A stretch of 63,107 nt of DNA, filler included, from Rhabdomonas costata (taxonomy: Eukaryota): NCBI GenBank assembly GCA_019059605.1. It is 46 parts of 46 records of this genome, joined end to end, with 100 filler letters (N's around TTAATTAATTAA, not from the genome) between each part and the next. Parts side by side here need not be neighbours in the genome. Positions count along the whole stretch, not along the records: positions 32,987 to 34,260 come from JAHMHO010021031.1; 45 more parts are not named here. One strand, given 5' to 3'. Made by a program: the position numbers and the translations under genes. Below are positions 32,987 through 34,946 of the stretch, in pieces (the stretch's first letter is position 1; each line of letters begins with the position of its first letter). Below the pieces are notes generated by a model that worked only from the letters and a program-made list of their open reading frames with translations, had not been told where the DNA came from and searched no databases.

Positions 32987-33145
32987 GGGTTTTGTTATTT
33001 TATTACTTATATGTGTTGTTGTACTTGATTGTTGTGGTCTCCATGTATCTACTTTGTCCGTGTCAATGTATTGTAATAATTCTTTCGGGCATTCTGTATT
33101 TTTATCTTTATATTTATAAATTATCTCAAGTGTGTAAGTTGCCAT
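32987..33145 (-). CDS. 5' part of an AT-rich, probably viral hypothetical protein
   Basis: ATG 54 nt downstream of the methyltransferase stop on the same strand; MATYTLEIIYKYKDKNTECPKELLQYIDTDKV...; runs off the fragment. Confidence 0.55.
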
Positions 33146-33199
33146 TATATTTTATATGATTTTTTTTGTCTTATTATTTATAAAATAATATCCATTGTT

Positions 33200-34135
33200 T
33201 TAAGCTATTTTCTGAAAAATATAATATTTATTTAATTTCATAAATTCATATGATGCATGATGTACATCATCATTTGGTTTAGATACAAAAAATTTAGATA
33301 TATTTTCTATATACTTATTACCTGTATCATATTTATAATAAGATGTAAAAAATGATTTGTGAATATTATATATTTTTTCAAAATATTCCATTTCAACAAG
33401 TTGTAATCCACATTTCTTAAATTCATTTATTATAAATTTAGAATCTACAAGATATTCAGAAACATAATTATCTGATATTGTCGTATTTAATACATCAATT
33501 TTATATCCAGTCTTTATTATATCAGTATCACTAATATTATTTGTATATTTTTTTACAATTTCAAATAATTTTTTCTTTGTTCCATTTTGTGTATAATATA
33601 ATGTATATTGTTCTCCATGTGTTTGGAATAAATGCATTATTTTATTTGCATCAAAGCATGTTATAAATAAATATCCACCAACTTTCAAATAATTCTTTAT
33701 ATTCTCACAAAAATTTGTCCAAGTTTTGTCATTCTCCAAAAAATAATGTATCGCAAACTGACAATTAATTCTATCATATGTCATTGTTCCATTCAAATAT
33801 GTTTTTATATATTCATTGTTTGTATCTTTTATTTTTTTTGTATTTGTATGTATATTATTTTTATTAATTTTATCATATTTAAATATATCATTGTCATAAA
33901 TCGTAATTTCTTGTGATACTAATGTTAACGGTTCTCTAGCATCTGCTAATATAAAAATCATTAACGGTTTATTTTCTTTCTTTATACTTTTATATCTTGT
34001 AATTGCACTATCATTTTCAGAATATAAATTATATATATCAACATCAACACCAACATATAAATGAACATTATTATTCATAAATTTATGAATATCGCCTCCA
34101 CGACCACAACCAATATCTAGAACGACGACGTCACG
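33200..34135 (-). CDS. mRNA cap guanine-N7 methyltransferase domain of a giant-virus (Mimiviridae-like) capping enzyme, 5'-truncated
   Basis: Frame extends upstream of the ORF-track Met to VVLDIGCGRGGDIHKF (SAM motif I); YVGVDVD, SAITRY, FILADA, YDRINCQFAIHYFL, NYLKVGGYLFITCFDA, SEYLV, LNKYYIFQK; intronless, extremely AT-rich, K/N/I/Y-rich. Confidence 0.88.
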   Translation of the reverse strand, partial: RDVVVLDIGCGRGGDIHKFMNNNVHLYVGVDVDIYNLYSENDSAITRYKSIKKENKPLMIFILADAREPLTLVSQEITIYDNDIFKYDKINKNNIHTNTKKIKDTNNEYIKTYLNGTMTYDRINCQFAIHYFLENDKTWTNFCENIKNYLKVGGYLFITCFDANKIMHLFQTHGEQYTLYYTQNGTKKKLFEIVKKYTNNISDTDIIKTGYKIDVLNTTISDNYVSEYLVDSKFIINEFKKCGLQLVEMEYFEKIYNIHKSFFTSYYKYDTGNKYIENISKFFVSKPNDDVHHASYEFMKLNKYYIFQKIA

Positions 34136-34946
34136 TCATAAATTTCTTTGTGTTCTTATATCTCCAGTCCTTTTCTTTTTGCACTTTTCAGCAGGCACGC
34201 TCTCTTTTTCTTAATTTTCACGTTTTCTCCACGACCAACCAACCCAAACACACCCACCACNNNNNNNNNNNNNNNNNNNNNNNNNNNNNNNNNNNNNNNN
34301 NNNNTTAATTAATTAANNNNNNNNNNNNNNNNNNNNNNNNNNNNNNNNNNNNNNNNNNNNAATTCTTATCCCTCTTTTGCACAGTCGCCATTGCTTCTGT
34401 TTGAGACTGGGGTGGAAAATGGAAAATTACATCCCAAATTCACAAACTCAGAATTTAGTGACGTTACGAACATGGAATTGAAGTCCCGGAGTCCCAAACG
34501 CTTACAATTCCCATGAATTCACCTTCCACCTTCGCATATGGCGTTTTTAAATTCACTCTGGCTTGACATCGGCTGACAAGCCACCTAAATTTGAACACAG
34601 GGTGGCCAGGATGGCTCAACTTAGAAGGCTTTTCGAAGAATCCATTTCAATATGTACACGTGAAGTTTTGCAACACTGTTCCTTGCATTTTTAGGTAAGG
34701 GCACCGCTCAACTCTGCAGGAGAGCCACGCAGGCTTAAACCCGCAGCTAGAGAGAAACAGAGTGATGCTTCGCATCTGAAATCGGAGGATGGTTCGATTC
34801 TCGGTGTGCGGGGTGTGGGATGACGTGATGATGGATGCACTCGGGCTGAGGTTGAGGTGGGGGGTTATGTGCGAGAGTAAGAGAGAGAGGAGGGAGAGGG
34901 AGGGAGGGAGCACGCGGCAGAGCTAAGCAACGCACGAGCACGCGAC

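What the first reader, a model, noticed from the sequence alone, without database searches (positions are those of the whole stretch)
32987..34135. Giant-virus (Mimiviridae-like) DNA inside a protist assembly
Seen: this fragment is far more AT-rich than any other, has no introns, and carries two same-strand ORFs 54 nt apart. The larger one has SAM motif I (VLDIGCGRGGD) and CQFAIHYF / LKVGGYLFITCFD motifs. Known: these motifs mark cap guanine-N7 methyltransferases, which form the C-terminal domain of the trifunctional capping enzyme of Nucleocytoviricota; AT-rich Mimiviridae such as Bodo saltans virus infect euglenozoans. Inference: it comes from a possibly undescribed giant virus that infects, was ingested by, or is integrated in a euglenid-like host.
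Basis: partly seen in the sequence, partly recalled or inferred. Interest (0 to 1): 0.85.

Follow-up and report, generated by a model that had tools for sequence, protein, structure and literature searches.

The report
Giant-virus gene fragment in euglenid assembly
One small, very AT-rich contig in a euglenid genome assembly carries part of the mRNA-capping gene of an undescribed mimivirus-like giant virus, but the data cannot show whether the virus infects the euglenid, is integrated in its genome, or merely travelled with the sample.

Summary
The contig at 32987-34260 has GC 0.24; the other 45 contigs have 0.44-0.575. On the minus strand it carries a 311-codon open frame and, 54 nt downstream, the start of a second ORF.

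The large frame is the guanine-N7 methyltransferase domain of a Nucleocytoviricota trifunctional capping enzyme. It scores about 200 bits (38-46% identity) against 1000-1300-aa giant-virus proteins, and 27-44 bits against solved cellular cap methyltransferases. In trees it falls in the radiation that holds a Mimiviridae-sized genome and "Mimivirus LCMiAC01", with no close relative among about 15 billion proteins. ORF2 resembles the N-terminus of a viral MIF4G (eIF4G-like) protein.

- The gene is cut inside the methyltransferase domain at about 34125-34138, where about 745 residues are missing and an in-frame TGA stands.
- The next ~105 nt look like host DNA, not virus.
- The contig ends, like 53 of the window's 92 contig ends, are remnants of a degenerate whole-genome-amplification primer, so the contig is one amplicon.

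The junction may be an amplification chimera or a real integration site. Reads and the whole assembly were not available, so this stays open. The host contigs match Rhabdomonas costata. Verdict: a real viral fragment, a new member of a known kind, with the host link unproven.

The parts
32987..32998 (+). Remnant of the degenerate 3' part of a whole-genome-amplification primer (GGGTTTTGTT = ten G/T bases, then AT)
   Evidence: 53 of 92 contig ends in the window begin with ten G/T-only bases, against 0.5% of internal 10-mers. The published primer design is TGTGTTGGGTGTGTTTGG-K10-NN (Methods passage of PMC10781638).
32987..33145 (-). ORF2: first 53 codons of a second viral gene, cut by the amplicon end; probably an eIF4G-like MIF4G protein
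   Evidence: The ATG is at 33145-33143. Residues 1-32 are 47% identical to the N-terminus of a 307-aa MIF4G protein in giant-virus contig L015. 0 of 300 shuffles reach its 35 bits. No Pfam match of its own.
33146..33199 (-). 54-nt intergenic spacer, GC 0.11
   Evidence: Giant-virus contig L012 has a 48-nt spacer between its capping enzyme and a MIF4G gene.
33200..34135 (-). Stop-to-stop frame of 311 codons plus TAA: the C-terminal guanine-N7 methyltransferase domain of a trifunctional capping enzyme. Homology runs from about 34126 to 33203.
   Evidence: All 22 invariant columns of a 25-sequence alignment are kept.
34125..34138 (-). Breakpoint zone: end of capping-enzyme homology and in-frame TGA. 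The first four codons (CGT GAC GTC GTC) are atypical for the ORF.
   Evidence: Both GTC codons of the ORF lie here.
34127..34231 (.). About 105 nt of non-coding, host-like sequence of unknown origin (GC 0.37)
   Evidence: GC-matched k-mer log-odds fall at the 72nd-83rd percentile of host windows, and in the top 0.8-1.9% of windows from low-GC giant-virus loci. No exact 25-mer in the metagenome or prokaryote-genome collections.
34232..34260 (-). Amplification-primer remnant: GTGGTGGGTGTGTTTGG + GTTGGTTGGT (K10) + CG (NN)
   Evidence: The same 17-mer stands at four other contig ends, and a one-mismatch variant at a sixth.

Best explanation
The contig is a single whole-genome-amplification amplicon. 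About 1.13 kb of it (roughly 32999-34126) is DNA of an undescribed, very AT-rich giant virus of the Mimiviridae/Imitervirales type.

On the minus strand it holds three things. First, the last ~310 codons of the trifunctional mRNA capping enzyme; this is the SAM-dependent cap guanine-N7 methyltransferase domain, which in such viruses methylates the GpppN cap of viral transcripts made in the cytoplasmic factory. Second, a 54-nt AT-rich spacer. Third, the first ~50 codons of a gene that probably encodes an eIF4G-like MIF4G protein.

The triphosphatase, the guanylyltransferase and the first part of the methyltransferase domain are missing. At about 34125-34138 the viral sequence is joined to ~105 nt of host-like DNA.

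Shown: viral origin, domain identity, the truncation and the primer ends. Inferred: that the virus was physically present with the euglenid cells. My estimates for the junction are an amplification chimera with host DNA about 0.45, a true host-virus integration junction about 0.35, and something else about 0.2.
For: - Domain identity: PF03291 at 50.1 bits against a cut-off of 26.6.
- Relatives among longer proteins: 584 proteins at E<=1e-3. The best 120 are 690-1347 aa, most carry the capping guanylyltransferase families PF01331/PF03919 with PF03291, and identity is 35-43%. The two that carry an organism name are 'mRNA capping enzyme [uncultured virus]' and 'Mimivirus LCMiAC01'.
- All-length search: 145 representatives at E<=1e-30, and in the full-length ones the match lies at about residues 700-1070.
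- Solved cellular enzymes reach only 27-44 bits.
- The ESM Atlas look-alikes are mostly Nucleocytoviricota clusters.
- 445 IMG/VR stretches encode relatives; the best is 42% identical.
- Trees: the query lies in a 104-of-141-row clade (FastTree support 100). It also lies in a 40-of-50-row ingroup (SH-aLRT 99), within a 28-row polytomy that holds L003 and P0027. L003's contig is 1,021,348 bp, the published length of moumouvirus, a Mimiviridae member (abstract of PMC3542560).
- All 22 invariant columns are retained.
- ORF2 and its synteny with a MIF4G gene.
- Primer ends.
- Truncation.
Against: - Only one ~1.1-kb piece is available, and a single domain cannot place a virus securely.
- The query's position inside the radiation is unresolved. 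Its sister P0005 has SH-aLRT 85 only, and no starred clade holds it.
- Only three references carry any label.
- No other viral contig is in the window.
- ORF2's assignment rests on one 32-residue match. It has no Pfam hit, no hit in the large protein database, and no significant BLASTP match to the L012 MIF4G protein.
- The Mimivirus-type AAAATTGA promoter motif (recalled) is absent from the spacer.
Confidence: 0.9

Rival explanations
1. The viral DNA is integrated in the euglenid nuclear genome, as a giant endogenous viral element or a small viral insertion. The contig captures a true host-virus junction that truncates the capping-enzyme gene.
For: - The ~105-nt flank is host-like once GC is matched: 72nd-83rd percentile of host windows, top 0.8-1.9% of giant-virus windows.
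- The gene is cut mid-domain with an in-frame stop.
- There is a precedent in a euglenid. The E. gracilis GEVEs keep a GC of 25-35% and carry capping-enzyme genes (PMC12455990, passages).
Against: - The contig is one amplification product, so a chimeric amplicon gives the same picture. Host DNA is the most abundant partner for a chimera.
- The viral part shows no decay: 311 codons open and all invariant residues kept.
- The flank has no match to the other 57 kb of host sequence in the window beyond the shared primer.
- The known Euglena elements are Asfuvirales, not Mimiviridae-like.
Confidence: 0.35
2. The junction is an artefact. A free virus supplied the viral DNA; it may have been infecting the euglenid, stuck to the cells, present in the culture or pond water, or a laboratory or reagent contaminant. 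Template switching during whole-genome amplification then fused that DNA to a host fragment.
For: - Both contig ends are primer remnants of a degenerate-primer amplification method, as are 53 of 92 contig ends in the window.
- The viral genes look intact, and the spacer has typical giant-virus composition.
- No second viral contig lies in the window.
Against: - There is no direct sign of chimerism: no internal primer sequence at the junction.
- The rate of chimeras in this assembly is unknown.
- Divergence from every known sequence (at most 46-48% identity) argues against contamination by a common laboratory strain, but not against an environmental virus.
Confidence: 0.45
3. The flank is also viral. 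It could be an insertion, an intron-like element or a rearrangement inside the virus's own capping-enzyme gene, or an intra-viral amplification chimera.
For: - 4.5% of 98-nt windows in 48 low-GC giant-virus loci reach the flank's GC.
- An 11-nt identity (CTCCACGACCA) links the primer-proximal end (34227) to motif I (34096).
Against: - The GC-matched k-mer test puts the flank in the top 0.8-1.9% tail of giant-virus windows.
- The 11-mer is not significant: 231 of 2000 and 443 of 2000 shuffles do as well.
- No frame of the flank resembles the conserved region upstream of motif I.
- Rfam finds no intron or other RNA family.
Confidence: 0.08
4. The fragment is a cellular cap methyltransferase gene of an AT-rich eukaryote contaminant.
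For: PF03291 is shared with cellular enzymes, and two of the ten ESM Atlas rows shown are eukaryotic clusters.
Against: - Scores are about 200 bits to fused viral capping enzymes, against 27-44 bits to solved cellular enzymes.
- The C-terminal LNRYYIF-type end is shared with the viral proteins.
- The neighbouring gene matches a giant-virus contig.
Confidence: 0.02

Closest known systems
Trifunctional mRNA capping enzyme of Mimiviridae/Imitervirales (triphosphatase-guanylyltransferase-N7 methyltransferase; mimivirus R382 type, name recalled)
   Same: The methyltransferase domain aligns over 98-100% of the query, with motif I, the CQFAxHY motif and the C-terminal YYIF end. All invariant columns are kept. 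Some relatives also end right after the domain, e.g. P0009 at 1023 aa and the L012 enzyme at 1008 aa.
   Different: Only the last ~310 residues are present. About 745 residues, including the start of the methyltransferase domain, are replaced by unrelated sequence. Identity is at most 46-48% to anything found.
Giant endogenous viral elements of Euglena gracilis (PMC12455990)
   Same: AT-rich (25-35% GC) giant-virus DNA in a euglenid assembly, including capping-enzyme genes (passages).
   Different: Those are eight regions of 86-311 kb, eroded, and placed in Asfuvirales. Here there is one 1.1-kb intact-looking piece of Mimiviridae-like affinity, and integration is not shown. The Euglena sequences were not compared directly.
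Bodo saltans virus (Imitervirales), the only giant-virus isolate from Discoba according to PMC12455990 and PMC8061765 (passages)
   Same: A Mimiviridae-type virus linked to a euglenozoan. That its genome is AT-rich is recalled, not seen in a call.
   Different: Its host is a kinetoplastid. No labelled BsV sequence was in my sets, so relatedness is untested.
Cellular cap guanine-N7 methyltransferases (RNMT / Abd1 / Ecm1)
   Same: Same Pfam family and the same SAM-binding and cap-binding motifs.
   Different: They score 27-44 bits, against about 200 bits for the viral enzymes. The cellular enzymes are stand-alone proteins.

Membership tests
mRNA cap guanine-N7 methyltransferase (Pfam PF03291) | Profile score above the curated cut-off | tested here: met
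   50.1 bits against 26.6, E 2.7e-13.
mRNA cap guanine-N7 methyltransferase (Pfam PF03291) | SAM-binding motif I (VLDxGCGxGGD) and the F/H/Y cap-binding motif (CQFAxHY) | tested here: met
   Residues 5-15 and 125-132. They align to the same motifs in solved enzymes and in 24 relatives.
mRNA cap guanine-N7 methyltransferase (Pfam PF03291) | Complete domain, including the part upstream of motif I (profile positions 1-61 of 315) | tested here: not met
   The match starts at profile position 62. The conserved FHNWIKS-type stretch of the relatives (consensus) is absent from all frames of 34136-34260. The fragment alone is not a complete enzyme.
Nucleocytoviricota trifunctional capping enzyme | Methyltransferase fused downstream of the triphosphatase and guanylyltransferase domains in one ORF | tested here: inconclusive
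   Most of the best 120 relatives have the fused architecture. On this contig the upstream part is cut off at about 34125-34138.
Imitervirales / Mimiviridae-like viruses | Groups with labelled members in a gene tree | tested here: met
   It lies in the ingroup (SH-aLRT 99) and in a 28-row polytomy with L003 (genome length equal to moumouvirus) and 'Mimivirus LCMiAC01'. Only one domain and only three labelled references were available.
Imitervirales / Mimiviridae-like viruses | Hallmark genes (MCP, PolB, A32 ATPase, VLTF3, RNA polymerase) of that order in the same genome | not testable with these tools
   No whole assembly is held. None of the other 45 contigs in the window matches the giant-virus loci.
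Giant endogenous viral element (integrated virus) | Host-virus junction supported by independent molecules | not testable with these tools
The flank composition is host-like, but the contig is a single amplicon.
MIF4G / eIF4G-like protein (ORF2) | MIF4G domain (PF02854) | tested here: inconclusive
   ORF2 has no Pfam hit. By analogy with P0261, where the domain spans residues 69-275, it would lie beyond the contig end. Only the N-terminal 32 residues match.

The most novel reading that the evidence does not exclude
An undescribed Mimiviridae-like giant virus infects, or has recently integrated into, an osmotrophic euglenid (Rhabdomonas costata or a very close relative), and the contig captures the host-virus junction. 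This would be the first Imitervirales link to euglenids. The known Euglena elements are Asfuvirales, and the only Discoba isolate infects a kinetoplastid. It would also involve a host that does not feed by phagocytosis, which raises the question of how such a large particle gets in.
Probability: 0.35. Interest if true: 0.65.

Novelty: new member of a known kind. Interest (0 to 1): 0.4.

Why it matters
Giant-virus hosts in Discoba are almost unknown. There is one isolate, on a kinetoplastid, and one report of Asfuvirales-type endogenous elements in Euglena gracilis (passages of PMC12455990 and PMC8061765).

A Mimiviridae-like sequence tied to a heterotrophic, osmotrophic euglenid would widen that picture and give a concrete lead for virus isolation. 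In the paper library, 6 papers hold both 'Rhabdomonas' and 'virus', and none is about a virus of that genus by title. The genome paper on the species has 0 occurrences of 'virus' or 'viral' in its main text; its supplements were not seen.

There is also a practical lesson. Contigs of this assembly are single amplification products with primer remnants at their ends. Junctions inside them cannot be read as genome structure without the reads.

Tried and rejected
- Whole-assembly screen for other NCLDV markers: no genome is held.
- Single-protein scan of IMG/VR: 5 pattern matches, none confirmed. The alignment-based scan worked.
- Rfam over the whole window: 0 matches, so no intron or other RNA family was recognised in the flank.
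- Exact 25-mer of the flank: 0 matches in the metagenome collection and 0 in the prokaryote-genome collection.
- ORF2 against longer proteins of the 5.8-billion-protein set: none at E<=10. ORF2 against the L012 MIF4G protein by BLASTP: not significant.
- Raw GC of the flank: ambiguous. It is in the lowest 2.1% of host windows, and 4.5% of giant-virus-locus windows are as GC-rich. Only the GC-matched k-mer test leans towards host.
- The 11-nt repeat between the primer-proximal end and motif I, considered as a target-site duplication or a priming trace: not significant.
- A GT-AG intron reading of the flank: by eye, no boundary placement within the repeat gives GT...AG. No tool test was run.
- Mimivirus AAAATTGA promoter motif (recalled): absent from the spacer, with one copy inside the ORF at 33502.
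- Earlier findings of this scan: nothing by place, by sequence or by words.
- List of cluster members for 10 hits held by NCBI: no organism names beyond 'uncultured virus'.
- Pfam on 10 long frames of other contigs: only one had a family, DUF4246.

Full report
WHAT THE WINDOW IS. The 63,107 bases are 46 separate contigs of 1267-1275 bp joined by artificial spacers. The finding concerns one of them, 32987-34260. Its GC is 0.24, and the other 45 lie between 0.443 and 0.575. Everything below therefore rests on this contig, its 45 neighbours and public collections.

THE OBSERVATION. It is correct.
- On the minus strand there is an open frame of 311 codons (33200-34135, TAA stop at 33200-33202).
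- A 54-nt spacer of GC 0.11 follows.
- An ATG at 33145 then opens a second frame, which runs to the contig end after 53 codons.
- The three quoted motifs are at residues 5-15, 125-132 and 150-162.
- A 311-codon frame in 21% GC DNA, where stop codons are frequent, is not a chance event. The homology below settles the matter in any case.

WHAT THE LARGE FRAME IS. Pfam assigns it to PF03291, the mRNA cap guanine-N7 methyltransferase domain (50.1 bits, cut-off 26.6).
- Among proteins longer than the query, 584 match at E<=1e-3. The best 120 are 690-1347 aa and 35-43% identical over 95-100% of the query. Most of them carry the capping guanylyltransferase families PF01331 and/or PF03919 together with PF03291.
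- The two that bear an organism name are 'mRNA capping enzyme [uncultured virus]' and 'Mimivirus LCMiAC01'.
- An all-length HMMER search of 1.84 billion representatives gives 145 hits at E<=1e-30. In the full-length ones the match lies at about residues 700-1070.
- Solved cellular cap methyltransferases score only 27-44 bits. So does the chain 7d8u, deposited as 'GTP--RNA guanylyltransferase', which I recall as the African swine fever virus enzyme.
- The ESM Atlas look-alikes are mostly Nucleocytoviricota clusters.
- In a 25-sequence alignment the query keeps all 22 invariant columns, so the domain looks functional as far as it goes.

WHICH VIRUS.
- An alignment-based scan of IMG/VR confirmed 445 relatives among the 600 pattern matches examined. 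The 80 best were kept, and the best is 42% identical.
- In a FastTree of 141 methyltransferase domains (80 loci, 60 protein hits and the query), the query lies inside a 104-row clade with support 100. It is first-branching in an 86-row subclade with support 84, on an end branch of 0.72 against a median of 0.27.
- I then picked 50 of the 141 rows by hand to span the tree, 10 of them distant rows used as outgroup. In an IQ-TREE quick search on these, the query lies in the 40-row ingroup (SH-aLRT 99).
- Within that ingroup it sits in a 28-row polytomy (SH-aLRT 92) together with P0027 ('Mimivirus LCMiAC01'), P0012 ('uncultured virus') and L003. Its weak sister is P0005 (SH-aLRT 85), and its end branch is 0.88 against a median of 0.53.
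- L003 comes from a contig of 1,021,348 bp. That is exactly the genome length given for Acanthamoeba polyphaga moumouvirus, a member of Mimiviridae, in the abstract of PMC3542560. The identification rests on that equal length.
- 'Mimiviridae-like' is thus supported as far as three labelled references and one domain can carry it. The highest identity found anywhere is 46-48%, so the virus itself is not in the collections searched.

THE SECOND ORF.
- It has no Pfam match and no hit among longer proteins of the large database.
- Against the 80 giant-virus loci it has one clear hit. Residues 1-32 are 47-50% identical to the very N-terminus of a 307-aa ORF in L015, on the same strand and 2.5 kb downstream of that contig's capping enzyme. 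None of 300 shuffles of ORF2 reaches its 35 bits; the best is 33.1.
- That L015 protein has a MIF4G domain (34 bits, cut-off 30.8).
- Its only other relative in the 80 loci is a 240-aa MIF4G ORF in L012 (56.4 bits). It starts 48 nt after the stop of the L012 capping enzyme, on the same strand. The window's contig has the same arrangement with its 54-nt spacer.
- ORF2 itself does not match the L012 protein significantly.
I read ORF2 as the start of an eIF4G-like gene, with moderate confidence (about 0.55).

- The large frame has no start. The codon before it is TGA, and its first Met is residue 20.
- Query residue 4 aligns with residue 746 of the 1230-aa P0012.
- The conserved stretch that precedes motif I in all relatives (consensus) is found in no frame of 34136-34260.
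- Nucleotide-level similarity to relatives stops at about 34123.
- The first four codons (CGT GAC GTC GTC) hold both GTC codons of the ORF and are atypical for it.
The viral sequence therefore ends somewhere in 34125-34138.

- Read inward, 53 of the window's 92 contig ends begin with ten G/T-only bases, against 0.5% of internal 10-mers.
- Six ends carry GGGTGTGTTTG within their first 25 bases.
- A universal single-cell whole-genome-amplification primer, TGTGTTGGGTGTGTTTGG followed by ten K (G/T) and two N, is printed in the Methods of PMC10781638 (passage).
- The right end of our contig reads GTGGTGGGTGTGTTTGG + GTTGGTTGGT + CG. The left end reads GGGTTTTGTT + AT.
The contig is therefore one amplification product from primer to primer. 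Anything joined inside it may have been joined in the tube.

THE FLANK (34127-34231).
- By raw GC (0.36-0.37) it fits neither partner well. No 98-nt window of the viral part is as GC-rich (0 of 1028), and only 2.1% of host windows are as GC-poor. However, 4.5% of such windows in 48 low-GC giant-virus loci reach its GC.
- I then compared it only with GC-matched windows, using two-fold cross-validated Markov models of order 2-4. Its host-versus-virus log-odds sit at the 72nd-83rd percentile of 109 host windows, and in the top 0.8-1.9% of 1504 giant-virus windows. It is host-like.
- One caveat applies: the 'virus' model comes from other viruses, not this one.
- It has no match beyond the primer to the other 57 kb of host sequence. 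It has no exact 25-mer match in the metagenome or prokaryote-genome collections, and no Rfam family.
- An 11-nt identity between its primer-proximal end (34227) and motif I (34096) caught my eye. Between 12% and 22% of shuffles do as well, so I make nothing of it.

HOST.
- A 261-codon frame on another contig (20768-21550, minus strand) is a DUF4246 exon. Its core of about 190 residues is identical to EukProt protein RCo023177, and the two ends diverge as expected at intron borders.
- Protein ids beginning with 'RCo0' occur 26 times in the paper on the heterotrophic euglenid Rhabdomonas costata, described there as a primary osmotroph (search listing and passages of PMC8219788).
- The host contigs are thus genomic DNA of that species or something indistinguishable from it in this exon. 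'Euglenid-like host' is confirmed.

HOW THE PIECES FIT.
- Viral origin of about 1.13 kb is shown (confidence about 0.9 for the whole statement, including the Mimiviridae-like label).
- The mechanism of the encoded domain follows from the family: SAM-dependent methylation of the cap guanine N7 on viral transcripts. It was not tested here.
- The relation to the euglenid is inferred only from co-occurrence in one amplified sample.
- A real integration junction and a chimeric amplicon both predict host-like DNA next to intact-looking viral DNA. Each would be captured in roughly one to ten per cent of such contigs by my rough reckoning, which is an estimate and not a computed figure. I leave them at about 0.35 and 0.45. 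An intra-viral explanation gets about 0.08, and the rest is undefined.

COMPARISON WITH WHAT IS KNOWN.
- According to PMC12455990 (passages), the only giant-virus isolate from Discoba is Bodo saltans virus (Imitervirales, kinetoplastid host). The eight endogenous elements of Euglena gracilis (86-311 kb, GC 25-35%, eroded) belong to Asfuvirales.
- PMC8061765 (passage) states that viruses of euglenids had not been verified experimentally.
- A Mimiviridae-like sequence with a Rhabdomonas-type euglenid is not in the library I searched (supplements not seen).
- It is nonetheless one more divergent giant-virus capping-enzyme fragment among thousands from metagenomes. I rate it a new member of a known kind.

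VERDICT. Interest is 0.4. The lead is cheap to follow with the reads and the full assembly, and it would rise to about 0.65 if integration or infection were shown.

Noticed in passing
all contig ends of the window, e.g. 5497, 8146, 21996, 34260, 38380, 52217: Residual whole-genome-amplification primer sequence at contig ends. 53 of 92 ends start with ten G/T-only bases, and 6 carry GGGTGTGTTTG. The assembly was not fully primer-trimmed, and its contigs are mostly single amplicons.
   Followed up: yes
window 20768-21550 (-): DUF4246 exon whose core is identical to EukProt protein RCo023177. Both ends diverge, as at intron borders. This shows genomic DNA of a Rhabdomonas costata-type euglenid.
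   Followed up: partly
L012 5850-9647 and L015 5787-12304: In two giant-virus contigs a MIF4G (eIF4G-like) gene lies on the same strand downstream of the capping enzyme, 48 nt away in L012 and 2.5 kb away in L015. This may be a conserved cap-and-translation gene neighbourhood. Only 2 of the 80 loci showed it by tblastn.
   Followed up: partly
window 34227-34237 and 34096-34106: The 11-mer CTCCACGACCA stands next to the primer remnant and again in motif I of the methyltransferase. It is not significant by shuffling: 231 of 2000 and 443 of 2000 shuffles do as well.
   Followed up: yes
whole window: There are no Rfam matches at gathering threshold in 63 kb. Nine of the ten long frames tested on other contigs have no Pfam family. 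The host contigs are largely non-coding or lineage-specific.
   Followed up: no
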